Below are positions 11,093-31,239 of a stretch of DNA of 64,000 nucleotides, one piece after another. The position numbers and the translations under genes were made by a program. Origin of the DNA: Pseudomonadota bacterium (GTDB taxonomy: Bacteria; Pseudomonadota; Alphaproteobacteria; Micavibrionales; UBA2020). Below the pieces are notes generated by a model. That model was given only the letters and a program-made list of their open reading frames with translations. It did no database searches and was not told the origin of the DNA. The stretch is taken from contig JAJZVA010000006.1 in assembly GCA_021845905.1 (NCBI GenBank), positions 74,264-138,263 of the forward strand, written 5' to 3'. Position 1 is the first letter of the stretch, and every line of letters begins with the position of its first letter.

Positions 11093-11159
11093 AGACGTTT
11101 GCATTATAAACTTATTAAACGATTGCATTTTTGACATTTCCGGCGCGCTGTGGCATAAA
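11093..11159 (+). promoter_or_regulatory. promoter of the Ubl operon with adjacent direct-repeat operators
   Basis: TTGACA 11131-11136, 17-nt spacer, CATAAA 11154-11159; ACG(T/A)TTGCATT at 11095-11105 and 11119-11129. Confidence 0.5.
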
Positions 11160-11219
11160 GGAAGGGTCTGCGGGGCCGTCGGCGCCGCGCTTTCTGAAGT
11201 ACGGTGTAAGGAGATTCCG

Positions 11220-11519: not shown

Positions 11520-11522
11520 GCG

Positions 11523-11966: not shown

Positions 11967-11970
11967 GACG

Positions 11971-13894: not shown

Positions 13895-13999
13895 ATGATA
13901 CCGCGCCAGAAAACTGAAGTAGTTCTTGCCCGCCTTGGCCAGTTTCCGACCGTGGCGCTGCTCGGGCCGCGGCAGGAGGGCAAAACCACGCTCGCCGAA
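13895..13999 (+). pseudogene. truncated 5' end of an AAA ATPase gene (DUF4143-associated type)
   Basis: MIPRQKTEVVLARLGQFPTVALLGPRQEGKTTLAE matches the usual N-terminus and Walker A of this family (memory); similarity ends after ~35 codons. Confidence 0.6.
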
Positions 14000-14092
14000 G
14001 GGCGAAGGAGTCGAGGTTATCGGTCTCAAGGAAATGGCGTCGCTTGTCGCGGGCTCCTAGAGCGGCCCATGGCGTCAGCGATGAAGTCGGTT

Positions 14093-15910
14093 TCAATTGT
14101 TTCCAGGAAGAAGGACGCAAGGGTCATTCTTCGGCGTCAAAATGGTTGTAAGACGCTTGCCTCGCGTGACGCTGACGCGCAGGTTCTGCTTGGCTTGGTC
14201 GTCTGCATGATCCCGTGAATTGAAGCGCACAATGCGGTCCGCGTTGTAGGGTGGCTGGCCCTTCCGTTTGATCGGCCAGCCCTCGAAAATAATAACTTCG
14301 TCGAATTGCTTACCTTTCGCTTTGTGCATGTTCATCACGATAACGCCGGACTCCGGCTTGACGTTTGTCGAAAAGTGCTCCCGGACGAAAGCCTGTCGCG
14401 TGATCGCCAGCGCATTGGAATAGCCGCCGTTGTCACGCCAATCCCGGGAAAGCTCCTGACGAAGTTGGGTCCCGCGCTCCAGGATACGGACGTTGCGAAC
14501 CTCATTCGCAATCTCATTCAATCTTTTGCAAGCTCCGTCCTGGAGGATGTGCCGCATGGCCAGCCAGTCGTTATCGGGGTCGCCCACAAGCACGAGCGCA
14601 CGTGTCTGGTCGTACACGGCGAGCATGCTGACGATGATGCTGTTCTTCCGCACGGCTTTGCCTGACGCATGACAAGTCAAAAGCTCTTCGTAGGCTTTTC
14701 GGATGCCCGCCGCCTCTTTCAGTGCTCCTTGCGTGGGTTCATCGCCGCCTTTGCCATGGAAGTAGTTGCACATGAGTTCGATGAACTGTTCAAAGTGATG
14801 GCGATCCACGGCAGGCTGCAACAGATGTGCGATAACTTCCGCCCCAAGGATTGCCGCCTCCATTTCGATGACCGCGGAATGCGGCACCTCAATCATCCCT
14901 GCCGGAGGTTGACGCAAGGCATCTGACACCAGGCGCGTCATCTTCTTTGTCGGGACGAGAATGGCCAGGGACCAGTCGGTGACGCCTTGGCTGACCAAGC
15001 GCCCGCGCGCGGCATAGGTCGTCGTAACTAGCTTTGTCATCGCTGGATCGGGAAAGGGGTCAAAGACATCGAACGCGATGCCCTTATACGTGTTCTGACG
15101 GAATTTCCCCGTAAGCAGGTCGTTGCCGAACATGCCGATCTCTGTCCCGGCGCTTCGGTGATTGTCTGTGCTCAGGTCTATCTCTGTTGGGGTGAACGTC
15201 TCTCGGAAATGGTGGAGACGCGCCGGGTCGGCACCAATCCAGTCATAAATGCGCTGTTCCGGGTCGGCGAGAGCAATCAGCCGGCAGAACGCGCCCAGCG
15301 CCTGAACGACCCGCCATTGCTGCGCATTCGTGTCCTGAAACTCGTCGAGGATGATGATCGGGTACATGGTCCCAATCAATCTGCGAATGCGATCGCTGCC
15401 GTGAAGGATTTCGCCGACATGGGGGGCATAGAGATCGAAGCACACAAGCCCCTCCGCGTTTGCGAGGCGGATGCGCTCTGTCTGCTCAGCGGCCTTCTTG
15501 GCCACCTTCTGCTCGTCGGAGAGGTTTCTGGCCGGGAAACCGGATCGCACCGCGGAGAGGGCGATCGCCTCGCCGGACGGCGTGAGGATACTGAGCCGCC
15601 GCGGCAGCCCGATGAGATAACCATGAGCCTTGAGGATACGCCAAAAGAAGGAATGGTAGGTCTCGACATCGATGAGCTGCTTCTGGGCACGCGGGATTTT
15701 CTGCTCATATTCGATAGCTTCTACCACACGCGAGACGGTGGCGCGTGCGAAGCTCAGAAACAGTATCTTCTGGCCGGGCCGAAGTTGATGCTCTGCCAAG
15801 TGGGCCGCCTTAAGAATGGAAACGGTTGTCTTTCCGGAACCCGGCCCTCCCGTGACAAGAAGGTGGCCATCGGCGTCCATCGCCTCAAGCTGCTTTTCAG
15901 TCAATTTCAT
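14093..15910 (-). CDS. gajB: UvrD/PcrA-like superfamily 1 helicase (GajB-like)
   Basis: LVTGGPGSGKTT Walker A, IILDEFQDT motif II; 14-nt overlap with upstream OLD-family gene. Confidence 0.8.
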   Translation of the reverse strand: MKLTEKQLEAMDADGHLLVTGGPGSGKTTVSILKAAHLAEHQLRPGQKILFLSFARATVSRVVEAIEYEQKIPRAQKQLIDVETYHSFFWRILKAHGYLIGLPRRLSILTPSGEAIALSAVRSGFPARNLSDEQKVAKKAAEQTERIRLANAEGLVCFDLYAPHVGEILHGSDRIRRLIGTMYPIIILDEFQDTNAQQWRVVQALGAFCRLIALADPEQRIYDWIGADPARLHHFRETFTPTEIDLSTDNHRSAGTEIGMFGNDLLTGKFRQNTYKGIAFDVFDPFPDPAMTKLVTTTYAARGRLVSQGVTDWSLAILVPTKKMTRLVSDALRQPPAGMIEVPHSAVIEMEAAILGAEVIAHLLQPAVDRHHFEQFIELMCNYFHGKGGDEPTQGALKEAAGIRKAYEELLTCHASGKAVRKNSIIVSMLAVYDQTRALVLVGDPDNDWLAMRHILQDGACKRLNEIANEVRNVRILERGTQLRQELSRDWRDNGGYSNALAITRQAFVREHFSTNVKPESGVIVMNMHKAKGKQFDEVIIFEGWPIKRKGQPPYNADRIVRFNSRDHADDQAKQNLRVSVTRGKRLTTILTPKNDPCVLLPGNN

Positions 15911-17768
15911 TTACACCGGCTCCCGGATCAGCGCCCGCAGCGACGGGTTCGACCGCCGCATTGATGGCGGCTGGGGCGGGTGTGCAGGCATCTTTCAACT
16001 GGACACACGCATTCCGAAGCCATTCGGGAATCTCGGACTCACTACATTGAGCCAGAAAGTCAGCGATAGCCCAATTTCCTTTGGCCCCTGCAAAATACTC
16101 CGAAAGCGCAACCGTGGCCTGCGCTCCAGGATCAGGGTACTTGGCCTTGAGGTGCGGAGGCCACGTGATGAGGTTCACGAACCGTTTTAGAGCCGCCTCG
16201 GTGGTGCCTTTCAGCACCATGGCCTCGAATCCTTTTTCCTCGTGCATCAACGACAACTCGACGTGGGCTTCAATCAGGGCCTTGTTCCCGTCCTCCTGCT
16301 TGTCGCAAATCGCAAAGGTGCGTTTTCCGAGGGCGCTATAAAACTGCGCCATGCCGGGGATGTTACTTTCGCTGCCGGCATCGACCGTGCAGATACCGAG
16401 TGCTTCAAGGGAGGAATAAACCTCCGGCTTTATCTCTGAAAGGCGACGGCATACCACCGGAAAGGCCGACGCCTCCGTAGCTCCTTCAGCAATGAGGATA
16501 CGGCGGGCGAGCAAACCTTCGCAGAAGCGGGTGCGGAATTCCTGCCGGTAGCGCTTGAGCTTCACGTTGTCGGGCAGCGCTATGATCTTGCGGGCGAGCA
16601 TCCCTTCTGTGTCACGCCCCAGAACGACGGTCTCCTCAAGGGCGAACTCCTCAAGCACGTATGGCGAATGCGACGTGAAGAGGGTTTGCGATGCCAGCTT
16701 CCGAACCTCGTGAACGATGCGCTTTTGGGCATAGGGCGGGATGGCCGTCTCCGGCTCTTCCATGGCAAAGATGACATTCTGCTTGTCTTCAGCGATTTGT
16801 GAGAGCATCGCCAGGACCAGCATGTTGATGGTGCCCGTCCCTTGTCGATAGAAGGGTGCGGCGTGATCGCCGTCTCCTGTGGCGATGAACGCCGTGATCA
16901 CCTTCCGCAAGTGCTCACGCGTTAAATTGGACACCTTAAGATGGGGCTTTACGCCCCATTCCTTTGGCACGTACTTCTTGAGCGCGACGCTGATGCTATC
17001 AAGTATCGGGGAAATACCAAGTTTCGGATCACTCGCAACCGAGATTCCAGACAGCGTTCCAAGTGTGTCCTCCCACATCTGCGGCCTGACTTCTTTGAGC
17101 CGCAGAATGATATCAAGCAGGCTGCCACGCTCTAAACTCAATGCGCGGGTGCCTGTCCGGAGGGAGCGGAGGTAAAGGAAGCCACATACCTGCTTGTGCC
17201 TCTTTGAGAACAGCTCTGGCGTGTCACCTTCCGTGAGACTGCGGGTAAAGAAGGTCCTGCCCTCGAAATCGTCCTCTTCCTCTTCGTACCAACCGTGGAA
17301 TGTGACGCGCAGCGCTTCGGTGATGGCGGCGCCGTCGACTCCCGCCGGGTTTGGTTCGTTGTAGAACTGGTCTGTCGCCGCGTCCCAAAACTCCGTGTAG
17401 TCGCCAAACTTTCCCTTCTGCTCGTCGGTAAGGTCCGCAACTGTCACCTCAATCTCGATTCTGGGAGCATCGGCCGCTACCTTGGTATCGTTGGCGGCGG
17501 GTTCGCCGTTATCATCAGCAGCGGGTTCAGCCGCTCCATCAGCCGGGGCCGCAACGGGCTTGACGGTATAATCACCTCTGAAAAAATCGTGCTCGTCGAT
17601 GGGTGGTTGGCGGTTGAGACGATCAGGCCCGAGCACCAGATCGAGTGCTTCGAGAATGGTCGTTTTGCCGGTGTTGTTATCGCCGATCAGTACCCCGTGC
17701 TTTGGTAACAACAGTGTTGTTGCCTTCACACCCCTGAAATTCTTGATGATGAGGCGACACGCTCTCAC
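15897..17768 (-). CDS. gajA: OLD-family ABC ATPase + TOPRIM nuclease (GajA-like)
   Basis: IIKNFRGVK...LIGDNNTGKTTILEAL N-terminus; C-terminal ILIAEGATEASAF TOPRIM-like; paired with UvrD helicase. Confidence 0.8.
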   Translation of the reverse strand: MRACRLIIKNFRGVKATTLLLPKHGVLIGDNNTGKTTILEALDLVLGPDRLNRQPPIDEHDFFRGDYTVKPVAAPADGAAEPAADDNGEPAANDTKVAADAPRIEIEVTVADLTDEQKGKFGDYTEFWDAATDQFYNEPNPAGVDGAAITEALRVTFHGWYEEEEDDFEGRTFFTRSLTEGDTPELFSKRHKQVCGFLYLRSLRTGTRALSLERGSLLDIILRLKEVRPQMWEDTLGTLSGISVASDPKLGISPILDSISVALKKYVPKEWGVKPHLKVSNLTREHLRKVITAFIATGDGDHAAPFYRQGTGTINMLVLAMLSQIAEDKQNVIFAMEEPETAIPPYAQKRIVHEVRKLASQTLFTSHSPYVLEEFALEETVVLGRDTEGMLARKIIALPDNVKLKRYRQEFRTRFCEGLLARRILIAEGATEASAFPVVCRRLSEIKPEVYSSLEALGICTVDAGSESNIPGMAQFYSALGKRTFAICDKQEDGNKALIEAHVELSLMHEEKGFEAMVLKGTTEAALKRFVNLITWPPHLKAKYPDPGAQATVALSEYFAGAKGNWAIADFLAQCSESEIPEWLRNACVQLKDACTPAPAAINAAVEPVAAGADPGAGVNEID

Positions 17769-17806: not shown

Positions 17807-20800
17807 TCACTCCTCCTCAAATCCTACCTTGCCGGTATCCAGCTTCAGGTCGCGCACATTCGCCCGCACGACATCGACAACATCGTCGGGATAGCCGGCG
17901 GGCGATGAGGCGTCGATCTCTAACGTCAGCTTTACCGTGGCTCCGTCGGCGCGGCTCAGCTCGAACAGGATTTCCTCGGCGATCTTGGCAACCTGGAGGC
18001 CCGCCTTATCAGGGTCCAGTGGAATCGAACCGTAGAAACGCCGCGGCTTCCCGGTTGTCGTTGCGGTTTTACCGGACTGATCGCCTACTCCCGTTGCCGT
18101 CGGACCGCCAGTGCGAGCGGAGGTTCCAGCACCTTCTGTCTTGCCAGTGGCTTCGCGTTCAGGCAATGCGCTGCGCCAGACCAGAATGCCGGTAGCGATA
18201 TTGCTGCCCAGACCGGCGGACCAGAGGGAAACGCGTTGGTATTCGCCGGACGCCTCGTCGAAGCCTTGGGCGAACGCCACGGGCGCCTCAATCTTGGCGA
18301 CAAGTTTTTCAATCGCCAGGGTGAGCGTGGCATCGTCCCGCAGGCGCGGCAGGTAGACATAAGAGGCGAACCAGTCGAGCAAAGTCGCAACCTCGATGTG
18401 CGGCTTGCTCTCTTCCCAGACCTTGCGCAACTCGGCCATGAGCGTGTCCGGCCCCAACTCATCGACGATGACGCTGTTGGCCTTGAGCTTGTCGTAAACG
18501 ACCTGGGCAATCGGCTTTCCCGGTGCCCGGTTGACAACCGAGGTATGCTCCAACTCGAAACCGCTGGCCGGACCTGTACCGTTGCCACCGTCCTGCGTGG
18601 GCACCGGATAGAGCACATGAGACCAGGTGCTGCGAATGCGCTGCGCGAGTCCTTCCGCGGATTGACGCATGCGGGCGTTGGCGTCTTCGATCTGCGCCTC
18701 GGTGAGGCCCTTCCTCATCTCCCTGTCTTCGACGATCGATTTCCAGGCAAGATACTTCCGGGCGATCTCGCGGCAGGTATCGAGTCCGCTCTCATCGGGG
18801 GCAACGAAAACCAGCGCGTTGCGAAACTTGCGCTGTCCGGTGCCGCGCCGTTGCAGCGTATCCGAAACGATGCGCTGCGCCGGGGTCCGTTCGGGACTCT
18901 TCAGGGCGTGTGGATATGTAGGCGGAACAATGAGAAGCGCGATGGCGCGCGCATCCTCCACGTCGATCAAGCTGTCGGGCGCGGCATGTACGCGGTGGAA
19001 ACTGCCCCTGTGGCTCTGCTCTTTGCGAAGAATAGAGATGATCTCAGCATCGGCGTCATCGGCGGCAACGTCGTTGGCGCGCTCGTCGGCAATCCGGTTA
19101 AGCGTCGGCTGCGTTGAAAACCAATAGCGGTCTCCTTCGCGGTAAAGATAGGCGGAGCGCTCCGACAGCTCGCGCAACGCATCGCCGAATATCGAAATCT
19201 GATCGCCGGGCTGCGCACAAGCGAGACGGAGCGAAGGCCCGGTCAAGCCGCCGCGCGACGATCCGCGATGGGGCGCGGTCGCAAGGAACACGGCCCGCGC
19301 GGCCCGCGTCACAGCGATGACATCGCCAAAGCGCTTACGCGAAGCCTCGATCTTGACCGGCAGGGCGAGTTCGCCATCGACCTCGCCCTGAAGGATTGGT
19401 CCATAAGAGCGGTCGAGCGGTTCCAAAATGGCCGTGCGCACCTTGTCTTCGGCCAGGGGTATCAGCCCGAGGTTAATCAAGGGCGCGGTGCTCTGCCCGC
19501 GCCATAGCGCATAGATGACGTTGGCCATGATCTTGAGAATACCGCGGGTGCGCTGAAATTTTTCCAGCGTGGACCAGTCCTCGGAAAAGCGCTTCAGCAG
19601 CTCCGGGTGGATCGGATAAGCGCGCTTCATCTCCTCACGATAGGCGGGCTCCTTCACTTCCGCGGGGAAGTCGGAAGCGTTGTCACGATAGAGCTTGCTG
19701 AAGGCTTGTATGGTCGCATCGCATGCTTTCTCGCCTTCCTCGTCGAGGGGCTGGAAGAGACGCCGTCGCACAATCTCGAAGGTCTCCATACCGCTCGCCG
19801 GGGTCCACGCGGATTGCACGCGGCCGAACAGTTTTTCGAGGCGGTGGAGAGCGGCAACGCCGCGTTCGTCGCCGACTTCCATGCCGGATTCCGGGAGCGA
19901 ACCAACGACCATGGCGCCAGGCACGGCCGCCGCGGCTTCCGTCAGCGATTGAATGAAAGCGTGGAAAGACTCGTTTTCCTCACCCCGGAGCTGCTTGGCG
20001 AAGGCAACCACTTCGTCAAGCAAAATGAGACAGGGCGAAGCGAGTTCCAGAATCTGGATGAGCTTCTCGGAGCCCGGATTGGTTCGACTGGCTTCGGAAT
20101 CGGCAATGTGGTCCACCGCGTCCCAACCACCGAGCTTGTAGGCGATGTAACCCCAGGGAGTGCGGATTTCCCGGCCATCGCTCGCATGCATGACCTCGCT
20201 CGGGCCTTTGTGCGTGCCGACGAAGACAGCGCGCTGGATCGTCGGCAGCGTCGAAACCCCGGCGGCGTCGAAGATGCTTTTCATGCCGTGCAGGATTTCA
20301 GGCTTGTATCCGGCTTGCGCCGCTCCCGCCAAGTGATAGAGGGCAAGCATGGTGTGGGTTTTGCCCCCGCCGAAATTGGTTTGCAGGCCAACCACGGGAT
20401 CGCCGCCTTTCTTCGCAAAGCGTTCAATCGCATCGCGCAGAACGCGGCTCAAGCCCTCGGTCAGATAGGTGATGCGGAAGAAGGCAAGCGGGTCGGTGTA
20501 TTCTTCCGAGCCGACGCCTTGGTCCACATGGGCGAGGTTCGCTGCAAATTCGGCGTCCGTAAAGCGCGCCTCCAGAACATCGGGATGGGGCTGGGCGACC
20601 TCGCGCCAGGGGCGGAGCTTCGCCGGCGGTGGCGGTTCGTCGAGCTGCCTCGCCCCCGCCGTCGCTTCGGCTGCCGCCTCAGGGCTTGCGCGTTTCTGGC
20701 CTTCGTACAATTTATCCACGATGGCGACCTGCTCTTTGGCGCCGATGGCATCGAGCAACTCGCGGATGGCGTCGAGATAACGAAGCGCCTCGCGATCCTG

Positions 20801-21103
20801 CATCATTCCGTCGAAATGCGAGGTCGCGTTGCGGGCATCCAGTGCGAGGGAGACATAGCTGCGCGCCTTGCGCATCCGGGCGTCATGCCGGAACACCTCG
20901 CTATAGTTATCGAGGATTGTCTTGAGTAAGCCGTAGCCATCCAGCTCCGAACCGGTATCGCCGCCGGTCGCACGGCTTACATATTGACGCCAGTGATTGC
21001 CATGGCGCTGTTTCATGCGCTCGGCCACATAGGGAGACAGGCCGACGCGCAGCGCCTCAAGGGCCTGATCGACTTTCTGCTTCGCGCCGTATGCATCGCT
21101 CAT
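17807..21103 (-). CDS. HEPN-DUF499 ATPase
   Basis: N-terminal Rx4H (ARNATSH) HEPN-like motif; FGGGKTHTMLALYHL Walker A; 1098 aa; 4-nt overlap with upstream gene. Confidence 0.75.
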   Translation of the reverse strand: MSDAYGAKQKVDQALEALRVGLSPYVAERMKQRHGNHWRQYVSRATGGDTGSELDGYGLLKTILDNYSEVFRHDARMRKARSYVSLALDARNATSHFDGMMQDREALRYLDAIRELLDAIGAKEQVAIVDKLYEGQKRASPEAAAEATAGARQLDEPPPPAKLRPWREVAQPHPDVLEARFTDAEFAANLAHVDQGVGSEEYTDPLAFFRITYLTEGLSRVLRDAIERFAKKGGDPVVGLQTNFGGGKTHTMLALYHLAGAAQAGYKPEILHGMKSIFDAAGVSTLPTIQRAVFVGTHKGPSEVMHASDGREIRTPWGYIAYKLGGWDAVDHIADSEASRTNPGSEKLIQILELASPCLILLDEVVAFAKQLRGEENESFHAFIQSLTEAAAAVPGAMVVGSLPESGMEVGDERGVAALHRLEKLFGRVQSAWTPASGMETFEIVRRRLFQPLDEEGEKACDATIQAFSKLYRDNASDFPAEVKEPAYREEMKRAYPIHPELLKRFSEDWSTLEKFQRTRGILKIMANVIYALWRGQSTAPLINLGLIPLAEDKVRTAILEPLDRSYGPILQGEVDGELALPVKIEASRKRFGDVIAVTRAARAVFLATAPHRGSSRGGLTGPSLRLACAQPGDQISIFGDALRELSERSAYLYREGDRYWFSTQPTLNRIADERANDVAADDADAEIISILRKEQSHRGSFHRVHAAPDSLIDVEDARAIALLIVPPTYPHALKSPERTPAQRIVSDTLQRRGTGQRKFRNALVFVAPDESGLDTCREIARKYLAWKSIVEDREMRKGLTEAQIEDANARMRQSAEGLAQRIRSTWSHVLYPVPTQDGGNGTGPASGFELEHTSVVNRAPGKPIAQVVYDKLKANSVIVDELGPDTLMAELRKVWEESKPHIEVATLLDWFASYVYLPRLRDDATLTLAIEKLVAKIEAPVAFAQGFDEASGEYQRVSLWSAGLGSNIATGILVWRSALPEREATGKTEGAGTSARTGGPTATGVGDQSGKTATTTGKPRRFYGSIPLDPDKAGLQVAKIAEEILFELSRADGATVKLTLEIDASSPAGYPDDVVDVVRANVRDLKLDTGKVGFEEE

Positions 21104-24057
21104 GACCGCGCCTCCCCAAGATCGAACGTGCCTTGCGCTGGCCCGATCTTGCCCTGAAAATCAAGCGCCGCCTGTTCGAGGTGGGGGAATTCCTCCGCCA
21201 GAAGATTGTAGACTTGTGCCTCCTGCGCCCATCCCTTCTTTTCGCAGATGTCGTAAAGGCGGTAAGCGAGCGCCCGCGCCGCCTCGGCGTCTTCGGAACT
21301 CATTTCGGCGATCAGCGCGGCGGCGGCGGCGGTGCTGCCATCCGCTGCCTCCAGTACGCGTATCAAATGCTGCGTGCATTCCCAATGCGTAAGAGTGCGG
21401 TCCGTGCTCGGCCGCCAGCCCTCCTGCATCTCAGCACGCTTCAGAAGGCGCGCCACACCTCCCTTAGCATAGAACACGCCGGCATGTTCCAAATCGCCAA
21501 GACCAAGATTGTAAGCGTTCGCCATGCCGATGGCGTCGCCGGACTTGCCCTGCTCCACGCCGAATGCCTGAAACCAGTCGATACAGAAACGTGTCGCTGG
21601 ATCATAATGCGCATCTTCTTCGCCGAGGATTTCCTCTCGCACTTCGTTGATAAGTGCGATGGCTGTGCGCACGGTCATCTCGGAATCATCAGGCTCCAAG
21701 ACCTTCGCGTAGCTGGTGAAAATGCCCATCCCCGGCCCAAGCGCCGACTGCGCCATATCGACCGGCCCGACACCGGCCTCCTTGATCTTCTGGAGAGCAT
21801 TTGGCAGGTCTTGTTTTAAGCGCGCGGCAAATTCCCGACGGGTACTGACCGCAGCGGTCACTGGGCGCTTAGTACAAACAAGGACAATTGATGAGGCCAA
21901 AGCATTTGAGGCTTGTCCTACCATGCGACTCGCGTTTTCCGTTCGCACCGGCCAAGTCCCATCGATTATGTATCCAGCATTAACGACACCCTGTAGAAAA
22001 GAAGCCCATCCAGCCGACGTGAGTCCGTCATCAGCGATCTCGGACTGCTTGAACGCGTAGTAGATGGCAACCGGCACCTCATCTGTCGCCGCCTTGTGTA
22101 TGTTCTTCAGTGCCTTCGAAATGCCCTCCATGAAAAACTGTTCGGCTTTTTCCACAGAGCCGTGGAGGTGACGCGTTGCTACGAGTTCTTCTTCCTTCGG
22201 CGTAAGAGTTCGTCTAAATAAGTCAGGCCAAATCTGTCTTAGTGACGGCCGCAGCCAGTTATAGAAGAAATCGGCGAGAACTGCGTAGCCAATATTATCA
22301 AAATATGGAGGATCAGTACAAAATACGGAATCTGGGTCGAATGTATTTTCCTGCGCGGCCTTATTGGTAATCACTCCCTGAAGGCGATTTGACTGCCAAC
22401 ACAGCGTAGAGGCGAGCGCCTTGCACTGGCCATCCAACACGGTAAGGAAGCTGCCGGACCTTTCTCCTAGAATATTCGACTCTGCAAAGTCCCATACCAT
22501 CGCCATACCCTGTCGCGCAAAGAGCTGACGTGGACATTGAGCAATTGGCTCCCATCTACAAAGGTTGTTGTTGAGGTCAGCAGACTTGTCTATGGCAAAC
22601 GCTACATAGGTAGCGACTGCATCAGCATATGCTTCGGCGCCACGTCCACCGCTTGCCAGCGAAACGTCGTCAGGGGTCAGACCATTTCGTTGAGCGGCGT
22701 TAAGTACATTTGTCCGTAGCTCCTGGATTAAGCCTGATAACGTTGCAAGTGCGATAGTCTGCCGATCTGTGAATAGGTGCCCCCAAGTGCGTAGACCATA
22801 GGCGGAACAAACGCCTCCTGTAATCATCGCTCTGGTTGGTGTTGCTCCAGATAAAAACCGCTCTCTCGCATCGGCGACGACATCTTTCCACTCATCGGCC
22901 AGTGTGGCTCGCTCATGTAGGTTATCCGGTGCGATGTATTGTCTTCCTCCAGGTCCATCTGCAACGACTGCCATTAGTCGAACCGACAGCCTATCTGCTT
23001 TGCCTTCTGTCTGGATGTAACTTCTTGGGATCGGCGCTCCCGAGAGCAAGCAGAGGAAATCTTGTGCTTTACCGGCCTTGGTGCCTAGTTTCTTGTTCTC
23101 CTCTACCTCCTTCGTCAGGTGCCCAGATTTGATCTCAAAACGCCAGCCGTCTTGTGCAGCGGCGTCCCGCACCACCTCGACCCATGCTTGCTTGCCTTTC
23201 TTCGCCGAGAGCATGAATGAAGAAACAAGCGGCACATGCGCACCCTTTGCCATGGGGTCGGGCGAGGCAACCGTGCGCGCCCACAACCATGCGATGACAG
23301 TCGCCTCGCTGCCGTCCGGCAGTGTCGCTTTGGGATAGAGATGCCCGATGCGTTTCTCGGCCTCGCCGCGCATCCATTGGCCGTAATAGCGCATGTCCTC
23401 GGCGAGTCCCTCCGCGCCCTTCCAGGCGCGGTGGGGATCGCGGTCGGGATTTACCGGCGGGCGGCCGGCAAACTTCGGCGGGATTTCCACCAGCGCCTTC
23501 GATATCAGCACTGCCACCGGGTTGAGGTCGGAGCCGTAGGCGCGAAGCCCGAGCCGTTGCGCTTCGAGCGGGATTGAGCCGCCGCCGCAGAACGGGTCAT
23601 AGACCGGCGGAGCTTTCTCTTGCAGATATGCGACAACGGCATCGGCGTCGGATTTCGCCGGCGGTTCCTCGCCCAACCCCCAGGCGACGGAGCGCGCGAT
23701 CTCCCACCGGGCATTGTTGAGAATGTGCGCGTTGGTCGAGGATTCCCACTGCACAAGCCCACCCTCATACCGACCGGTTTTCGGGTTCTTGTGACCTGCG
23801 ATCAGGTCGTGAAGACGCTTTCTTTCCACGTTCTGCGCTTCTTCTGTCGGGAAGCGGTCCGGCCAGGATGACGGGTCATCGACAAGCTGGGCGAACAGGA
23901 CGGCACGACACGCCGCGAGCGGTCGCCGTGCCCACCAGAGATGAAGCGTGGAAGGGTGCCCATGCCGAATGGACTTCTCCCGCGCGCTCGCCTCGTTGAT
24001 GGCTTCGAGCGGGATCGAGACTTCGATGAGCTTTTTTCTTCTTACGGGTCCGCTCAT
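21100..24057 (-). CDS. DUF1156-type DNA methyltransferase
   Basis: N-terminal IEVSIPLEAINEASAREKSIRHGHPSTLHLWWARRP; DPFCGGGSIPLEA (motif I) and TDPPYFDNIGY (motif IV). Confidence 0.8.
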   Translation of the reverse strand: MSGPVRRKKLIEVSIPLEAINEASAREKSIRHGHPSTLHLWWARRPLAACRAVLFAQLVDDPSSWPDRFPTEEAQNVERKRLHDLIAGHKNPKTGRYEGGLVQWESSTNAHILNNARWEIARSVAWGLGEEPPAKSDADAVVAYLQEKAPPVYDPFCGGGSIPLEAQRLGLRAYGSDLNPVAVLISKALVEIPPKFAGRPPVNPDRDPHRAWKGAEGLAEDMRYYGQWMRGEAEKRIGHLYPKATLPDGSEATVIAWLWARTVASPDPMAKGAHVPLVSSFMLSAKKGKQAWVEVVRDAAAQDGWRFEIKSGHLTKEVEENKKLGTKAGKAQDFLCLLSGAPIPRSYIQTEGKADRLSVRLMAVVADGPGGRQYIAPDNLHERATLADEWKDVVADARERFLSGATPTRAMITGGVCSAYGLRTWGHLFTDRQTIALATLSGLIQELRTNVLNAAQRNGLTPDDVSLASGGRGAEAYADAVATYVAFAIDKSADLNNNLCRWEPIAQCPRQLFARQGMAMVWDFAESNILGERSGSFLTVLDGQCKALASTLCWQSNRLQGVITNKAAQENTFDPDSVFCTDPPYFDNIGYAVLADFFYNWLRPSLRQIWPDLFRRTLTPKEEELVATRHLHGSVEKAEQFFMEGISKALKNIHKAATDEVPVAIYYAFKQSEIADDGLTSAGWASFLQGVVNAGYIIDGTWPVRTENASRMVGQASNALASSIVLVCTKRPVTAAVSTRREFAARLKQDLPNALQKIKEAGVGPVDMAQSALGPGMGIFTSYAKVLEPDDSEMTVRTAIALINEVREEILGEEDAHYDPATRFCIDWFQAFGVEQGKSGDAIGMANAYNLGLGDLEHAGVFYAKGGVARLLKRAEMQEGWRPSTDRTLTHWECTQHLIRVLEAADGSTAAAAALIAEMSSEDAEAARALAYRLYDICEKKGWAQEAQVYNLLAEEFPHLEQAALDFQGKIGPAQGTFDLGEARS

Positions 24058-27000
24058 GCCGGCGGCCCCCCTACGGTCAGAATTTTTGTCAGGTTCAAAT
24101 TTCGTGAGACCTCCATGAATCCGGGTTCAGCACCGAAAACGCCGGTGGGGCTTCGCACATAAATGGGCGGCCGGGCGAATCCGGCTTCGACCTGCACGAC
24201 GGCAAGGATGTAGGAAAGCTCGGAGTCTTCGGTGTTGAAAGCCGTCAGCATCTCGTTGCGGGTGACGGTGATGGTATCGGCGGCCTCCGCGCGTCCCTTC
24301 ACCTCAATGAAGATCAGGTCGCCGGTCTTCGCATCGCGGCTTTCGATGTCATAGCCGCGATTTTCGGCGGACACATCGCGCGGGTCGCGCCCAAGTGCGC
24401 GCTCCGCGGCCATGACGGCTTCCATCGCGAGCTGTTCGATTTCTGCGCGGTCTTTTGCGAGTCTGGTTGCCGGACCGGACGGCTCGGAATATTTGGCGAA
24501 CCAGCCGATCGGAACCACCAGCGCCGCGCCCTGTATCTCCGGTGGCAAGGGCGCGATCTGCCGTTCCTTGGCAAGCTCGGAAAGGCGCTTGTCGAGCCGG
24601 TCGGTCAGCATCTCAACATAGCGCCGCGCATTCTGGGAATTAAGGCGTTGCTGCTTGCCGGCTTTCTCCTGCCGTTCGAGTTCGAGCGCCCGATGCTGCC
24701 AATGCAGAATTTCGCGGCGCAGGCGTTCCTTTACGGCCGTCTCGATCTTCTGAATTTCTTGCAGCCGCCGGGACTTAACCTCTTCCAGGTGGTGCGGAAC
24801 GAGTTCCGTGATGGCATATGAACGAACCGCGTCCTCGATGTTGCCGGCGAGCCAATCCTCATGCAGGAGCGGCTCAATCTGCTGTTTCTCGTCTTCCTTA
24901 ACCGGCCGGCAATCGAGATAAGGCGCTGCGCCGCCGTCCATGGCGCTGCCATTGCGGTCGAGATAAACGAATTGAAGGCGCTGCGAGATTACGCGCGGGC
25001 GTCCGTTACGCCCGACACGGCCATCACGAATACCATGTTCCAAATACACGAGGACACGGGGCTGTTCACCGCTATCGTTCTCATCAACCAGGACTGCACC
25101 CTGGCCTAACAGATTGCGATAACGATCCAGCGTCAAATCAACAGTGGCATCCAAGAGCGGGTGGCCGGGCGCGACCAGCATGGCCTGGTGCTTGCCGGGG
25201 ATATCCCCCTTGTCAAAACAGATTCGTTCATAGCGCGGGAGTACAGGATCGCCGCGACCGATGAGCCGGTCGCGGTCCCGGAGGATGGCGGGCACGCGCC
25301 TGACTTCATAGCGACCCTTTTCCCGCGGGCGCATAACGCCGCCGACTAGCGCGAACGCCTCCTCGAAAAACGAGCGGATGTAGCGCGGCTGCAAACGGCG
25401 TGCCTCTGCGCGCTCCATCTCCTCTTTGAGAGTGGTGATGGTGGCGGGATCGAGTCCTTCTTTGGTGAGCTTGCTGCGCGTAACAATCTCGTCGATATGC
25501 TTGCGGTCGATGGCGCCGTCAATCGCTGTGAAAAGTCGCTCGCGCACTTCGGGGCTTTCGCCATAGCGGATTGCTTCCATGAACATGTCGCGGAGCGCGC
25601 GCGCCTCGAACAGCTCGCCGAGCACGTCGTAGACTTTGCCGCCGAGGGTCTCGCGCGCAGTCTCCAGCTTTTCAAGCAGACGGGCATAAACTTCGCCTTC
25701 GCGGGTTTCGCCCGCGATAAGGTTCCAAAGGTGGCATACTTCAGTCTGGCCGATCCTGTGGATACGCCCAAAGCGCTGCTCCAGGCGGTTCGGATTCCAA
25801 GGCAGGTCGTAATTGACCATAAGGTGCGCACCACGTTGCAGATTCACACCTTCGCCAGCGGCGTCATTGGCGATCAGAAAGCGGACCCTCGGATCGTCGT
25901 TGAAAGCGGCGATCGCGGCGCGACGGCGATCGCGCGGCACACCGCCGTGAATGATCGCAACGGCCTCCGCCTCGCCAATTCGCCCGCGAATACGTGTGGC
26001 GAGATATTCCAGGGTATCGCGGGATTCAGTGAAGACGACGATCTTCCGGTGTACATCGTTCGCAGGGTCGTAGACGATGGGATCGTCCAGAATGCGGTCC
26101 AGCTCGCGCCACTTGGTATCTTCCCCCGAACGGCGCAGCACGCGGGCCAGCCCCTCAAGCTCTTTCAGGGACTCAATCTCAGCTTCGAGTTCGGCGATGG
26201 TGCGCGCGGCTGTCGCCTGATCGACAACCTGATCTTCGAGGTTCTCCAATTCGTCCTCGGGGGCCTCATCAACGTCTTCGTCGTCCCAGGTTGGAATGTC
26301 TGTCTTCGTTGACAAAACACCTGCCGCCTCATGGCCGCGCTTGAGCAAGCGCTCCTCCTCAAGGCGGGCTTCGAGCCGCGCAAGGCGCCGCTTCAAGGAT
26401 TCATGGATGGCGGCCGGAGACGATGCGAGCCGTCTTTGGAGAATTTGCAAGGCGAAGCCGACATTATTGCGCCGGCGGTCGCCGCCGTCCTGTATCTGGT
26501 CGGCGCGGTTCATTTCGTCGCGCACGTAACGGGTCACCGCTTCATAGAGCACGGCCTCCCGGTCCGAGAGCTTGTAGGAAACTGTGTAAGCCTTGCGCTC
26601 GGGAAAGAGCGGCGTGCCATCGAAGCGTTTGAGTTCTTCCTTGGTCAGGCGGCGGATCATGTCCGAGATATCGACCTTGTGCGCTCCCTCGCGGAAGCGG
26701 CCCTCAAAGCGGTCGGAGTCCAAGAGCCCCATGAAAAGCTGAAAATCCTCCTCCTTGCCGTTGTGGGGCGTGGCTGTCATGAGGAGAAAGTGGCGCGCAA
26801 GGGAGCCAAGAAGCTGTCCGAGCTGATAGCGCTTGGTGTATTTGACCTCACCGCCGAAGAAGTTGGCGGACATGCGATGGGCTTCGTCGCAGATGATAAG
26901 GTCCCAACCAGGCGCAGCCTTCAGTCGGTCCTGAAGGTCCTGTGCTCGGGACAGCATGTCGAGGCGGGCAATGACTCTCTGGTGTTCGGCGAAGAAATTT

Positions 27001-27575
27001 CCGCTTGCAGAAGCTTCAACCTGATCGCGCGTCAGGATGTCGAAGTCGGTCGAGAACTTATCACGCAGTTCATCTTGCCACTGTTCGACCAGACTTCCAG
27101 GGGCGACGATCAGGCAGCGCTCAAGATCGCCCCTGATGAGAAGCTCCTTGATGAGCAAACCGGCCATGATTGTCTTGCCCGCGCCGGGATCGTCGGCGAG
27201 GAGAAATCGTAGGGGTTGGCGTGGCAGCATGTCCTCGTAGACGGCTGTCAACTGGTGGGGTAATGCCTCGATTTGGGACGAGCGGACCGCGAGGAACGGA
27301 TCGAAAAGGTAAGCGAGCCGAATGCGCAAAGCTTCCGAAGTGAGACGTAACAGATGACCATCACCATCAAAGGCGAAACGGCGCGAAGGGGATGCTAGTT
27401 CCAGCTCCGTCTCGGAAGACCGAAATAGAACGGTCTGTTCGACGCCGCCGGTGGATTTGTAAGTGACCTCGACCGCATCAGGACCGAAGGAGCGCGCGGC
27501 GATAACATCGACGAACTCGCCGCCGGCGATCCCACGTATCCTGCTTCCTGCTACGATCTCTTCCAGCCGCATCAT
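24054..27575 (-). CDS. SNF2-type helicase with C-terminal PD-(D/E)xK (DUF3883-like) nuclease domain
   Basis: DDPGAGKTIMAG, ICDEAHRMS, QRFGRIHRIGQT; C-terminus NRGYDIES...LIFIEVKGR. Confidence 0.8.
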   Translation of the reverse strand: MMRLEEIVAGSRIRGIAGGEFVDVIAARSFGPDAVEVTYKSTGGVEQTVLFRSSETELELASPSRRFAFDGDGHLLRLTSEALRIRLAYLFDPFLAVRSSQIEALPHQLTAVYEDMLPRQPLRFLLADDPGAGKTIMAGLLIKELLIRGDLERCLIVAPGSLVEQWQDELRDKFSTDFDILTRDQVEASASGNFFAEHQRVIARLDMLSRAQDLQDRLKAAPGWDLIICDEAHRMSANFFGGEVKYTKRYQLGQLLGSLARHFLLMTATPHNGKEEDFQLFMGLLDSDRFEGRFREGAHKVDISDMIRRLTKEELKRFDGTPLFPERKAYTVSYKLSDREAVLYEAVTRYVRDEMNRADQIQDGGDRRRNNVGFALQILQRRLASSPAAIHESLKRRLARLEARLEEERLLKRGHEAAGVLSTKTDIPTWDDEDVDEAPEDELENLEDQVVDQATAARTIAELEAEIESLKELEGLARVLRRSGEDTKWRELDRILDDPIVYDPANDVHRKIVVFTESRDTLEYLATRIRGRIGEAEAVAIIHGGVPRDRRRAAIAAFNDDPRVRFLIANDAAGEGVNLQRGAHLMVNYDLPWNPNRLEQRFGRIHRIGQTEVCHLWNLIAGETREGEVYARLLEKLETARETLGGKVYDVLGELFEARALRDMFMEAIRYGESPEVRERLFTAIDGAIDRKHIDEIVTRSKLTKEGLDPATITTLKEEMERAEARRLQPRYIRSFFEEAFALVGGVMRPREKGRYEVRRVPAILRDRDRLIGRGDPVLPRYERICFDKGDIPGKHQAMLVAPGHPLLDATVDLTLDRYRNLLGQGAVLVDENDSGEQPRVLVYLEHGIRDGRVGRNGRPRVISQRLQFVYLDRNGSAMDGGAAPYLDCRPVKEDEKQQIEPLLHEDWLAGNIEDAVRSYAITELVPHHLEEVKSRRLQEIQKIETAVKERLRREILHWQHRALELERQEKAGKQQRLNSQNARRYVEMLTDRLDKRLSELAKERQIAPLPPEIQGAALVVPIGWFAKYSEPSGPATRLAKDRAEIEQLAMEAVMAAERALGRDPRDVSAENRGYDIESRDAKTGDLIFIEVKGRAEAADTITVTRNEMLTAFNTEDSELSYILAVVQVEAGFARPPIYVRSPTGVFGAEPGFMEVSRNLNLTKILTVGGPPA

Positions 27576-27808
27576 GCCTTCTTTCTCTCTGGCCAGATTT
27601 CGACACCCGCGGCAGGCCCCTTTGCCTGAAGCCGTTGCGACGAACCGCGTTCTTCGGCCGCGTCTTTGTATTCCGGCACGTAATCCCGCATGAACTCTCG
27701 GGTGACCTGCGCGTCGAGCAGCGTACCAGCCAGCTTCGCGGCATCCGCCACGGAATGCAGCCGGCTCAGCTCATGTGCAAATAGCTTGGCGTGGTATTCG
27801 GTTATCAA
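27572..27808 (-). CDS. small ORF; first ~35 codons look like the N-terminus of a different SNF2 helicase family
   Basis: MITEYHAKLFAHELSRLHSVADAAKLAGTLLDAQV then unrelated sequence; ATGA overlaps with both neighbours. Confidence 0.4.
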   Translation of the reverse strand: MITEYHAKLFAHELSRLHSVADAAKLAGTLLDAQVTREFMRDYVPEYKDAAEERGSSQRLQAKGPAAGVEIWPERKKA

Positions 27809-27999
27809 GCCTTGCCGTCCCTTCTTTGCTCCTCGACTTTGCGCTTCATCCAGTTGGCGATCTCCTGCCGTTCAAACCGCCAAGACCCGCCAACCTTGAA
27901 ACCGGGAAGTTTGCCTTCTGCGGCAAGCTTGTAGGCCGTCTTCTCGTTGATCTTGAGAAGCTCCGCCACTTCCCGGATCGTGAGAATCTCGTCGGTCAT
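27805..27999 (-). CDS. excisionase-family (MerR-like) HTH DNA-binding protein
   Basis: LTIREVAELLKINEKTAYKLAAEGKLPGFKVGGSWRFERQEIANWM. Confidence 0.8.
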   Translation of the reverse strand: MTDEILTIREVAELLKINEKTAYKLAAEGKLPGFKVGGSWRFERQEIANWMKRKVEEQRRDGKA

Positions 28000-28193
28000 A
28001 TGCCACCCGGAATTGCCAACCGGGACAGTATAGGAAAAAAACTGGAAAATCCGAGAAAAAACTTACTTGAGTTCTGGGTCAGGCACGGACGCTTGAGGCA
28101 TGTTCGGGAATTGGACGTGCTTCGGGGAAACAAAGGAGTTATGGTATTCACTAATCAATTGCGTAAAGTATCAAAAAATGATACCTTGCGCAC

Positions 28194-30869: not shown

Positions 30870-31239
30870 GATCTGCCTTCCTTTCCGGGCTTGGGGTTCA
30901 GCGCGCGTCTGAACCCTTGCCCGTCGGCGAGACCGGGGTGTGCAAGCGGAAAGGGGCTTCGCGGGGAACCGGCTGCACGGAGCCGGCGCCGCTTCGCGCG
31001 GGCGGAGGAAGCTGGGCGGAAGCCCCTTGCAGCGCGCTGAGGGGCAGCGCCCCTTCCATGTCCTTTTGCAAGTAATATTTCGTGCGTCAGCACACCGCAT
31101 AAAAATGCCGTGCTGAAATGGGGTTTTTGTGTTTCTGTTGGGTCGGAAGCAGGGCGGCGATGGCGACGGTCGATCAAACTTCCATACGCGGGTCAAAAAC
31201 CGCATGAATGCGTGTCGTCTTGGGCCTACCTCGGACTAA

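What the first reader, a model, noticed from the sequence alone, without database searches (positions are those of the whole stretch)
17807..27999. Five-gene translationally coupled operon: HTH, helicase-N fragment, SNF2 helicase-nuclease, DUF1156 methyltransferase, HEPN-DUF499 ATPase
All four gene junctions are 4-nt ATGA overlaps (27805, 27572, 24054, 21100). The large proteins are:
- a 1173-aa SNF2 helicase with a C-terminal PD-(D/E)xK module (GYDIES...IEVK)
- a 985-aa DUF1156 enzyme with FxGxG and DPPY methyltransferase motifs
- a 1098-aa ATPase whose N-terminus carries an Rx4H HEPN-like motif ahead of a GGGKTH P-loop

I recall this DUF499/DUF1156/helicase trio as a predicted anti-phage, restriction-modification-like system. 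I know of no established mechanism for it. The combination of a putative RNase (HEPN), a DNA nuclease and a methylase in one operon is striking.
Basis: partly seen in the sequence, partly recalled or inferred. Interest (0 to 1): 0.7.

Follow-up and report, generated by a model that had tools for sequence, protein, structure and literature searches.

The report
Known Hma anti-phage system plus Gabija
This is an intact copy of a common, already described bacterial anti-phage system (Hma, also called Type-1 BREX-related), sitting next to a Gabija system on a mobile element; it is ordinary, except that it has displaced an older defence module and left a small scar.

Summary
One detail is wrong: the first junction is TTGA, not ATGA. 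The three large genes are full-length matches to PADLOC HmaA, HmaB and HmaC. This is the Hma system (Payne 2021), also called the Type-1 DUF499-centred BREX-related system (Rakesh & Krishnan 2026). The architecture was first noted in 2013. The HEPN-DUF499 fusion is the common form, not a rarity: 57 of 60 relatives have it, as do all 120 best database homologues.

The HTH gene and the 78-codon ORF are not Hma parts. A block of promoter, HTH and the first 35 codons matches the head of a different module (a DrmD-like SNF2 helicase plus a Type III-like methylase). That homology stops abruptly at 27705. Hma homology starts at about 27584. Hma therefore replaced that module.

No terminator-like site was found before the one after gajB. 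The locus lies on an ICE-like defence island.

Likely mechanism, inferred from MANTIS/BREX and the HmaA study:
- HmaC loads HmaB for self-methylation.
- HmaA cuts unmodified DNA.
- HEPN is a backup RNase.

Novelty: already known. Interest is low.

The parts
24054..27575 (-). hmaA: SNF2 helicase (Walker A GAGKT 131-135, DEAH 230-233, motif VI 600-610) fused to a C-terminal NOV_C / PD-(D/E)xK nuclease (residues 1046-1130, window 24186-24440; D1076, E1091, K1093)
   Evidence: PADLOC HmaA E=0, 1606 bits, aligned 1-1167 of a 1176-position profile. Pfam SNF2-rel_dom, Helicase_C and NOV_C 1.2e-19. Motifs located. Closest solved relative by sequence is RapA.
21100..24057 (-). hmaB: DUF1156-headed amino-methyltransferase (motif I FCGGG 156-160, motif IV DPPY 582-585) with a hypervariable central region, about residues 300-600 (window 22258-23160), read as the target-recognition domain
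   Evidence: PADLOC HmaB E=0, 1068 bits. Pfam DUF1156 1.7e-31. D154-P155-F156-G158 and T581-D582-P583-P584-Y585 are invariant in 32 homologues. Against the three closest relatives, residues 300-600 are 30-50% identical in most 50-residue blocks, and the flanking blocks 151-200 and 751-850 are 82-88% identical.
17807..21103 (-). hmaC: N-terminal Swt1-type HEPN domain (residues 13-121, window 20741-21067; R91-N92-x3-H96) fused to a DUF499 AAA+ ATPase (Walker A GGGKT 245-249, Walker B D363-E364)
   Evidence: Pfam HEPN_Swt1 4e-14 and DUF499 2.4e-31. PADLOC HmaC 1.9e-242, covering residues 162-1090 only. R91, N92, H96, G245-H250, D363 and E364 are invariant in 30 homologues of 32-78% identity. In the AF2 model, the best PDB fold matches are BrxC.
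27805..27999 (-). Small HTH_17 / MAD1-like DNA-binding protein (64 aa). Probably the regulator of the promoter that now drives the operon. Inherited from the displaced module, not an Hma component.
   Evidence: Pfam HTH_17 6e-17. NCBIfam MADS1 75.6 bits, just under the cut-off of 80. PADLOC mad1 2.5e-9. The gene lies inside the 78%-identical DNA block shared with L084. A similar HTH sits upstream of hmaA in only 3 of 80 related loci.
27572..27808 (-). Relic ORF (78 codons, TTG start). Codons 1-35 (window 27704-27808) are the 5' stub of a different, DrmD-like SNF2 helicase. Codons 36-78 (window 27575-27703) are junction sequence without any relative. Its stop overlaps the hmaA start.
   Evidence: No Pfam, PADLOC or NCBIfam hit. 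All homologues match only residues 1-35, and the alignment breaks after 'LLDAQV'. Full N-termini of that helicase family score best on PADLOC DrmD PDLC02619. DNA homology to L084 ends at 27705. An open frame over 43 random codons has probability about 0.25 at local base composition.
28000..28063 (-). Upstream leader and promoter region that travels with the HTH gene (contains TATACT about 20 nt upstream of the HTH start codon)
   Evidence: It is part of the block 28063-27705 that is 78% identical to L084 7743-8104. No consensus sigma-70 site was called there, so promoter function is inferred.
15897..17768 (-). gajA: Gabija OLD-family ABC ATPase with TOPRIM nuclease. GTG start 38 nt after the hmaC stop, preceded by GAAGGAG.
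   Evidence: PADLOC GajA 2.6e-262, 870 bits, full length. Pfam AAA_15, AAA_21 and OLD-like_TOPRIM. Spacer sequence.
14093..15910 (-). gajB: Gabija UvrD-type helicase. Its start overlaps the gajA stop by 14 nt.
   Evidence: PADLOC GajB 4.6e-235, 780 bits. Pfam UvrD-helicase.
13991..14006 (-). Terminator-like hairpin with a T-run, 87 nt after the gajB stop. It is the first such site downstream of the operon on this strand outside coding sequence.
   Evidence: Consensus scan. The only other minus-strand terminator-like sites lie inside hmaB and hmaC coding sequence. This is a pattern match only.

Best explanation
The three large genes are an intact Hma system, also called a Type-1 DUF499-centred BREX-related system, in its common HEPN-fused form. 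It is a methylation-based, restriction-modification-like anti-phage and anti-plasmid module.

Proposed working, step by step:
(1) HmaB is an N6-adenine-type (amino) methyltransferase. Its variable central domain reads a short DNA motif and marks the host genome as self.
(2) HmaC is a BrxC-like AAA+ ATPase. It uses ATP to load or activate HmaB on DNA and acts as the scaffold that reports unmodified sites.
(3) HmaA is an SNF2 translocase fused to a PD-(D/E)xK nuclease. It is recruited to unmodified foreign DNA and nicks or cleaves it.
(4) The HEPN RNase on HmaC is a second-line effector that degrades RNA if restriction fails.

What is shown here: family membership, intact catalytic motifs, conservation of those motifs, hypervariability of the HmaB middle region, and a BrxC-like fold for HmaC.

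What is shown elsewhere: HmaA alone protects against T4 and its NOV_C domain is a nickase. In the sister system MANTIS, the DUF499 ATPase loads the methylase, and the methylase directs both modification and restriction.

What is inferred: all four steps as applied to this locus.

Locally, the cassette (window about 27584-17801) replaced most of an HTH / DrmD-like helicase / Type III-like methylase module on an ICE-like element. It kept that module's promoter, its HTH gene and 35 codons of its helicase. It is probably co-transcribed with a separately acquired Gabija pair.
For: Identity:
- PADLOC HmaA, HmaB and HmaC match at E = 0, 0 and 1.9e-242, all essentially full length.
- Pfam finds SNF2 + NOV_C, DUF1156, and HEPN_Swt1 + DUF499.
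- 80 related genomic loci keep the order A-B-C.
- More than 7,800 HmaC homologue clusters exist, and the top 120 all carry HEPN_Swt1 + DUF499.

Activity is plausible:
- All catalytic motifs are present.
- They are invariant across 30-32 homologues: HEPN R91/N92/H96, Walker A and B, motif I, and DPPY.
- An RNxxxH motif is present in 57 of 60 relatives.

Specificity lies in HmaB:
- Its residues 300-600 are 30-50% identical to the closest relatives in most 50-residue blocks, while blocks 151-200 and 751-850 are 82-88% identical.
- HmaA and HmaC are mostly 70-98% identical to the same relatives.

HmaC resembles BrxC: the three best Foldseek PDB hits of the AF2 model are Acinetobacter BrxC (9zll, 9zdx; E 4e-4 to 8e-4, probability 1.0).

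Literature:
- PMC3710099: first description of the architecture.
- PMC8565338: naming of Hma, 1,638 instances in 26 phyla.
- PMC11232893: HmaA defence and nickase activity.
- PMC12839542: Type-1 BR classification, with the HEPN variant in 1370 of 2446 taxa.
- bioRxiv 10.64898/2026.09.23.753747: MANTIS mechanism.

Mosaic origin: DNA homology to the HTH-SNF2-methylase module stops at 27705. Hma homology spans 27584-17801. The closest compact relative, L089, has no HTH, stub or Gabija.
Against: - No experiment exists on this locus, and no methylome data are available.
- In the only wet-lab study of a Type-1 system, HmaA protected on its own, with an abortive-infection-like phenotype. Phage grown on HmaB-expressing cells did not escape (PMC11232893). 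That result does not fit a simple modification-protects model, although T4 DNA is glucosyl-hydroxymethylated.
- The HmaC model is mediocre (pLDDT 69, pTM 0.39), and the TM-scores to BrxC are low (0.29).
- Sequence profiles of HmaB and HmaC find no solved relative. The BREX link therefore rests here on one fold search plus the literature.
- Type-1 systems lack the MtsB co-factor that MANTIS needs, so the loading step may differ.
- Co-transcription with Gabija is inferred only from spacing and the absence of a terminator-like site.
Confidence: 0.65

Rival explanations
1. HmaA is a stand-alone abortive-infection effector. It senses a phage cue through its helicase domain and nicks DNA. HmaB and HmaC are accessory: they restrain toxicity or tune HmaA, rather than providing methylation-based self/non-self discrimination.
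For: In Halomonas, HmaA alone reduced T4 titre about 100-fold with an abortive-infection-like growth phenotype. HmaB overexpression did not let T4 escape. About 15-20% of hmaA genes lack hmaB or hmaC nearby (PMC11232893).
Against: HmaA, HmaB and HmaC co-occur and keep their order in nearly all complete related loci. The HmaB catalytic motifs are invariant, and its central domain diversifies in the way restriction-modification specificity domains do. In the sister MANTIS system, the methylase and the DUF499 ATPase are both required for restriction and for modification. T4 is a poor test phage because its DNA is hypermodified (my own knowledge).
Confidence: 0.2
2. The five ORFs form one evolved five-gene system. 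The HTH is a dedicated Hma regulator and the 78-aa protein is a functional small subunit.
For: All five ORFs are co-directional with overlapping stop and start codons. HTH_17 genes occur directly upstream of hmaA in three other loci: L028, L043 and L073. The identical arrangement is seen in three assemblies.
Against: The small ORF is absent from all 80 related loci, and the HTH is absent from 77. Residues 1-35 of the small ORF are the N-terminus of another helicase family, and similarity breaks mid-domain, before the Q motif and Walker A. The HTH + stub block shares 78% DNA identity with a different module. Residues 36-78 have no relative anywhere searched. The three assemblies carry the same sequence, so they are not independent.
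Confidence: 0.05
3. The locus is a decaying or inactive relic: cargo picked up by a mobile element and no longer functional.
For: A recombination scar lies at the 5' end. The surroundings are a mosaic with an IS110 element and a second integrase-like gene.
Against: All three Hma genes and both Gabija genes are full length against their profiles, with no frameshift or internal stop. Every catalytic residue is intact. The overlapping junctions are preserved.
Confidence: 0.07

Closest known systems
Hma system (Payne et al. 2021, PADLOC), also called the Type-1 DUF499-centred BREX-related (BR) system (Rakesh & Krishnan 2026). Prototype neighbourhood Ava_2192 (Anantharaman et al. 2013).
   Same: The three proteins, domain architectures and gene order are the same. 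HmaA is SNF2 + NOV_C nuclease, HmaB is DUF1156 + amino-methyltransferase, and HmaC is HEPN + DUF499 ATPase. All give full-length PADLOC matches.
   Different: Nothing differs at the system level. Local peculiarities are a fully compact A/B/C arrangement with 4-nt overlaps (a minority form), a foreign HTH + helicase stub upstream, and Gabija appended downstream. Payne et al. labelled HmaB an m5C methylase. The invariant DPPY motif found here indicates an exocyclic-amino (N6A/N4C) enzyme instead, as the 2026 paper also says.
MANTIS / Gao_RL (Type-2 BR system; MtsABCD)
   Same: Both have a DUF499 AAA+ ATPase, a DUF1156-type adenine methylase and a helicase-nuclease effector. It is the best available mechanistic model: ATPase-loaded methylation and methylase-directed restriction.
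   Different: MANTIS has the DUF3870 protein MtsB and a PLD (HKD) nuclease-helicase. This locus has neither; it uses a PD-(D/E)xK (NOV_C) nuclease on an SNF2 motor and adds HEPN. The NCBIfam equivalogs DUF499_antiphage and DUF1156_antiphage score 148 and 115 bits against cut-offs of 1200 and 1000.
BREX (especially type 3: BrxC, BrxX/PglX-type methylase, BrxHII helicase)
   Same: The HmaC model's best solved-structure matches are BrxC. HmaA matches PADLOC BrxHII/BrxHI at 1e-92 and 7e-96. Both are methylation-based self-marking systems.
   Different: The operon has no PglZ, BrxA, BrxB or BrxL. Hma carries an explicit nuclease, and BREX has none in its core.
DISARM (DrmD SNF2 helicase)
   Same: HmaA shares the SNF2 core with DrmD (PADLOC 2.4e-114; NCBIfam 392 bits). 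The displaced helicase whose stub survives upstream is DrmD-like.
   Different: The DrmD score is below the NCBIfam cut-off of 610. No DrmA, DrmB or DrmC is present.
Gabija (GajA/GajB)
   Same: The two downstream genes are full-length GajA (ATPase + TOPRIM) and GajB (UvrD).
   Different: The pair is directly appended to hmaC on the same strand. None of the 80 related Hma loci has Gabija adjacent. OLD-family modules next to BREX and BR systems are, however, a described theme (PMC12839542).

Membership tests
Hma / Type-1 BR system | SNF2 helicase carrying a C-terminal PD-(D/E)xK (NOV_C/DUF3883) nuclease | tested here: met
   PADLOC HmaA 1606 bits, aligned 1-1167 of 1176. Pfam SNF2-rel_dom, Helicase_C and NOV_C 1.2e-19. 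The D...ExK residues are present.
Hma / Type-1 BR system | Methyltransferase with an N-terminal DUF1156 domain and amino-methyltransferase motifs I and IV | tested here: met
   PADLOC HmaB 1068 bits. Pfam DUF1156 1.7e-31. FCGGG and DPPY are present and invariant in 32 homologues.
Hma / Type-1 BR system | DUF499 AAA+ ATPase, optionally with an N-terminal HEPN domain | tested here: met
   PADLOC HmaC 805 bits. Pfam DUF499 2.4e-31 and HEPN_Swt1 4e-14. Walker A/B and RNxxxH are invariant.
Hma / Type-1 BR system | The three genes are adjacent and co-directional (helicase, methylase, ATPase), with no DUF3870 or PLD partner | tested here: met
   ORF map. Same order in 80 related loci. No PLD or DUF3870 hit in any operon protein.
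Hma / Type-1 BR system | ATPase is BrxC-like (ORC/Cdc6-clade AAA+ with wHTH modules) | tested here: inconclusive
   The top three Foldseek PDB hits are BrxC (E 4e-4, probability 1.0), but TM is 0.29 and the model is only moderate, pLDDT 69. Sequence profile searches against the PDB find nothing.
Hma / Type-1 BR system | Motif-specific DNA methylation by HmaB, and protection against phage or plasmids | not testable with these tools
   This needs methylome sequencing and challenge assays.
MANTIS / Gao_RL (Type-2 BR) | MtsB (DUF3870) and a PLD-nuclease helicase (MtsD); equivalog-level match to its DUF499 and DUF1156 proteins | tested here: not met
   NCBIfam DUF499_antiphage 148 bits against a cut-off of 1200. 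DUF1156_antiphage 115 against 1000. phospholipD_antiphage 159 against 1100. No PLD domain is present.
BREX | PglZ phosphatase together with BrxC and the PglX methylase | tested here: not met
   None of the seven operon proteins matches PglZ, BrxA, BrxB or BrxL in PADLOC.
DISARM | DrmA + DrmB (DUF1998) + DrmC or DrmD + methylase | tested here: not met
   Only SNF2-core similarity to DrmD, at 392 bits against a cut-off of 610. No DrmA/B/C partner is present.
MADS | The mad1-8 operon, with MAD6-8 mandatory | tested here: not met
   Only the HTH resembles MAD1, at 75.6 bits against a cut-off of 80. GajA hits MAD3 weakly, at 55 against 420. No other mad model hit was seen. MAD1 is described as a widespread accessory regulator.
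Gabija | GajA (ABC ATPase + TOPRIM) adjacent to GajB (UvrD-like helicase) | tested here: met
   PADLOC GajA 870 bits and GajB 780 bits, both full length. Pfam OLD-like_TOPRIM and UvrD-helicase. The genes overlap by 14 nt.

The most novel reading that the evidence does not exclude
The HTH_17 (MAD1-like) gene plus the first codons of its DrmD-like helicase may be a recurrent landing pad on conjugative elements. Whole defence cassettes would be swapped in behind a retained promoter and regulator.

The same stub, broken at different codons, precedes different cargo:
- Hma + Gabija in this window.
- A SIR2/LmuB-like set in L086.
- Restriction-enzyme fragments and CBASS in L085.

The relic ORF may be kept open to pass ribosomes from the HTH gene into the incoming cassette. 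Its stop overlaps the next start both here and in L086.
Probability: 0.15. Interest if true: 0.4.

Novelty: already known. Interest (0 to 1): 0.22.

Why it matters
The finding itself adds another instance of a very widespread, already catalogued defence system, so it changes little.

Its modest value is as material for experiments:
- It is a compact, intact, HEPN-bearing Type-1 BR/Hma operon with tightly overlapping genes. That makes it a convenient construct for testing what is still unproven for this type: the HmaB methylation motif, whether the DUF499 ATPase loads the methylase without an MtsB-like helper, and when the HEPN RNase fires.
- The recombination scar gives a precisely mapped example of one defence module replacing another behind a retained promoter and regulator on a mobile element.

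Tried and rejected
Solved relatives of HmaB and HmaC by sequence. Single sequences and profiles of 30-32 homologues gave nothing significant. Only a fold search gave BrxC.

Is the small ORF a conserved Hma gene? tblastn against 80 related loci gave no hit. Pfam, PADLOC and NCBIfam gave no hit.

Origin of the 120-nt junction (27585-27704). There was no match in any fetched locus or elsewhere in the window. An open frame over 43 codons is expected by chance about 25% of the time, so it is not evidence of selection.

A 3' remnant of the displaced helicase/methylase/Type III restriction-enzyme module downstream of Gabija. None was found.

Was Gabija or the HTH co-inherited with Hma?
- Homology to the closest Hma loci ends within a few bases of the hmaA start and the hmaC stop.
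- The nearest compact relative has neither gene.

Is the stub a dedicated docking site? A metagenome scan with the helicase N-terminus returned mostly intact helicases of about 950 aa, followed by a Type III-like methylase. The first protein search was biased towards short fragments. I therefore treat the stub as a scar and keep the docking-site idea only as a low-probability reading.

Other negatives:
- No tRNA gene marks the island.
- No consensus sigma-70 promoter was called upstream of the HTH gene.
- The organism was not identified. The exact proteins are unnamed in the collection. The closest named HmaC homologues are alphaproteobacterial.

Full report
OBSERVATION

- Three junctions are ATGA overlaps: small ORF/hmaA, hmaA/hmaB and hmaB/hmaC.
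- The HTH/small-ORF junction is TTGA, because the 78-codon ORF begins with TTG.
- Every quoted motif is present: GAGKT, DEAH, motif VI, GYDIES and IEVKG in the helicase; FCGGG and DPPY in the methylase; RNATSH, GGGKT and LLDE in the ATPase.
- Profile searches confirm all domain calls: HTH_17; SNF2-rel_dom, Helicase_C and NOV_C; DUF1156; DUF499 and HEPN_Swt1, the last above Pfam's gathering score.

WHAT IT IS

Against PADLOC, the three large proteins are full-length matches to HmaA (1606 bits), HmaB (1068 bits) and HmaC (805 bits). Hma ('helicase, methylase, ATPase') was named as a candidate defence system in 2021 and found 1,638 times in 26 phyla (PMC8565338).

The same neighbourhood had been described in 2013: a HEPN-fused DUF499 ATPase, an SNF2 helicase fused to a DUF3883 restriction-endonuclease-fold domain, and a methylase (PMC3710099). 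In 2026 it was reclassified as the Type-1 DUF499-centred BREX-related system. That study found it in 2446 taxa, 1370 of them with the HEPN fusion and 79% with the helicase-nuclease fusion (PMC12839542).

My own sampling agrees.
- 80 related genomic loci keep the A-B-C order.
- 57 of 60 with a readable hmaC have an N-terminal extension of at least 100 residues carrying RNxxxH.
- A database search returned more than 7,800 HmaC homologue clusters, and the best 120 all carry HEPN_Swt1 + DUF499.

The locus is not MANTIS/Type-2 BR, because it has no PLD and no DUF3870, and NCBIfam equivalog scores are far below cut-off. It is not BREX, because it has no PglZ. It is not DISARM or MADS either.

THE HTH GENE AND THE 'HELICASE-N FRAGMENT'

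These two ORFs are not part of Hma. The 78-aa ORF has no family hit and is absent from all 80 related loci. An HTH homologue precedes hmaA in only three of them.

A protein search found that only residues 1-35 have relatives. These are the N-termini of a different SNF2 helicase family, and the alignment breaks abruptly after 'LLDAQV', before the Q motif and Walker A. That family scores best on PADLOC DrmD PDLC02619.

At the DNA level, window 28063-27705 is 78% identical to the head of an HTH / SNF2 / Type III-like methylase module that sits beside a type IV coupling protein in contig L084. This block comprises the leader, the HTH gene and 35 helicase codons. In that module the HTH stop also overlaps the helicase start (GTGA).

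Homology to the closest Hma loci covers 27584-17801, from a few bases before the hmaA start to a few bases after the hmaC stop. The 120 nt in between (27585-27704) match nothing. No 3' remnant of the displaced module is left in the window.

The simplest reading is that an hmaABC cassette replaced the body of an older helicase-methylase module and now sits behind its promoter and regulator. The closest compact relative, L089, has an HmaC 85% identical. It has hmaABC with the same 4-nt overlaps, flanked by a resolvase and an integrase, and no HTH, stub or Gabija.

The relic ORF stays open up to the hmaA start, which could preserve translational coupling. However, 43 stop-free codons are expected by chance about one time in four.

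THE OPERON CONTINUES

gajA starts 38 nt after the hmaC stop, with a GAAGGAG ribosome-binding site. gajB follows and overlaps gajA by 14 nt. Both are full-length Gabija proteins.

On this strand, the first terminator-like site outside coding sequence lies after gajB, at 14006-13991. None of the 80 related Hma loci has Gabija adjacent, so Gabija was added independently. OLD-family modules placed next to BREX and BR systems have been described as putative backup effectors.

SURROUNDINGS

The operon lies in an ICE-like island. The island is bounded roughly by an integrase next to uvrC (49747-51069; uvrC at 51746-53608) and by an aldo-keto reductase gene near 1388-2389. It contains:
- a ParB-like gene, a coupling protein and a relaxase;
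- an IS110 element and ArdC;
- two AbiE pairs;
- a CapP-like peptidase, an SbcB-like exonuclease and a BilD-like E1 enzyme.

The identical locus is on NCBI contig DAIAHB010000015.1 of assembly GCA_027431735.1. The organism was not identified.

MECHANISM

Shown here:
- All catalytic residues are intact and invariant across 30-32 homologues.
- HmaB has a hypervariable middle, about residues 300-600, between motif I and DPPY. It is 30-50% identical to the nearest relatives in most 50-residue blocks. HmaB blocks 151-200 and 751-850 are 82-88% identical, and HmaA and HmaC are mostly 70-98% identical. This is the pattern expected of a target-recognition domain.
- The best solved-structure matches of an AlphaFold model of HmaC are BrxC from the Acinetobacter BREX system. 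The model is only moderate and TM-scores are low.

Shown elsewhere:
- HmaA alone protects E. coli against T4. This needs helicase motif VI and the NOV_C nuclease, which is a Mn2+-dependent nickase.
- In the sister system MANTIS, the DUF499 ATPase loads the methylase on DNA. The methylase hemimethylates asymmetric 6-bp sites and directs both modification and restriction by a helicase-nuclease.

Inferred for this locus:
- HmaC loads or activates HmaB for self-marking.
- Unmodified sites license HmaA to translocate and cut.
- The HEPN RNase acts as a last-resort effector.

The main rival is that HmaA works alone as an abortive-infection nuclease, with HmaB and HmaC as modulators. The Halomonas data support it. 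The tight three-gene conservation and the HmaB diversification pattern weaken it.

VERDICT

This is a correct and careful observation of an already known system. Two of the five ORFs are a scar of a displaced module, one junction is not ATGA, and an adjoining Gabija system was missed.

The only non-textbook element is the mapped cassette replacement. Similar stubs, broken at other codons, precede other defence cargo in L085 and L086. An unbiased scan found mostly intact helicases, so I rate a dedicated 'landing pad' as unlikely.

Noticed in passing
L085 8826-9318; L086 8736-9366; L087 4918-5313; L088 352-660; compare window 27572-28063: The same HTH_17 + DrmD-like SNF2 5' stub recurs in unrelated contigs, broken at different codons (about 81, 84 and 125, against 35 here). 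Different cargo follows: SIR2_2 + an LmuB-like ATPase (L086); a Type III restriction-enzyme 3' fragment, a SIR2 fragment, CapP/CapH and a patatin CBASS (L085); or an internal deletion that keeps the methylase (L088). In L086 the stub's stop also overlaps the next gene's start by 4 nt.
   Followed up: partly
L002 14149-17739; L003 10858-14427; L025 8314-12537; L033 13992-18218; L043 13498-17733; L067 13648-16824: In 46 of 67 related loci, hmaA and hmaB are more than 500 nt apart. The gaps hold large co-directional genes. L002 and L003, the second- and third-closest genomic relatives, have a protein of about 1190 aa with no Pfam hit. L025 and L043 have a Sacsin/GHKL-ATPase-like protein of about 1410 aa, and L033 has an unscanned ORF of similar size at the same position. 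Others hold HD + Schlafen/HATPase_c_4 genes or an IS1595. This agrees with the published 'insertion hotspot' between hmaA and hmaBC. The window has no insert.
   Followed up: partly
window 41712-44855 (-): The type IV coupling protein (T4SS-DNA_transf, TrwB_AAD_bind, TraG-D_C) is fused at its C-terminus to a classical AAA ATPase module (PF00004 + AAA_lid_6, residues about 820-1040). I did not examine this fusion further.
   Followed up: no
window 5124-6660 (+) and 28194-29815 (+): There are two separate AbiEi/AbiEii toxin-antitoxin/abortive-infection pairs on the same island. One is divergently transcribed from the HTH-Hma operon across a 194-nt intergenic region.
   Followed up: partly
window 28152-28200: A 22-nt imperfect inverted repeat (77% complementary, 5-nt spacer) overlaps the abiEi start in the divergent intergenic region. 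It may be an AbiEi autoregulation operator.
   Followed up: no
window 8894-13820: Further defence-flavoured genes lie beside Gabija: a BilD-like ThiF/E1 enzyme (12489-13820, +), a CapP-like M78 peptidase (10159-10686, -) and an SbcB-like exonuclease matching the PADLOC DRT-associated model RTasSbcB at 2.8e-107 (8894-10135, -). No partner reverse transcriptase or CBASS cyclase was seen among the ORFs tested.
   Followed up: partly
window 29949-32464 (-): The ArdC anti-restriction protein (ArdcN + MPTase-PolyVal) and an IS110 transposase lie just beyond AbiE. A relaxase (38187-39701) and an integrase (49747-51069) next to uvrC indicate an integrative conjugative or mobilisable element. No tRNA gene is present in the window.
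   Followed up: partly
window 21100-24057 (hmaB): The 2021 naming paper and the 2024 Halomonas paper call HmaB an m5C methyltransferase. The invariant DPPY motif IV, and motif I placed before a large insert, point to an exocyclic-amino (N6-adenine type) enzyme. PADLOC's own description and the 2026 BREX-related paper say the same.
   Followed up: partly
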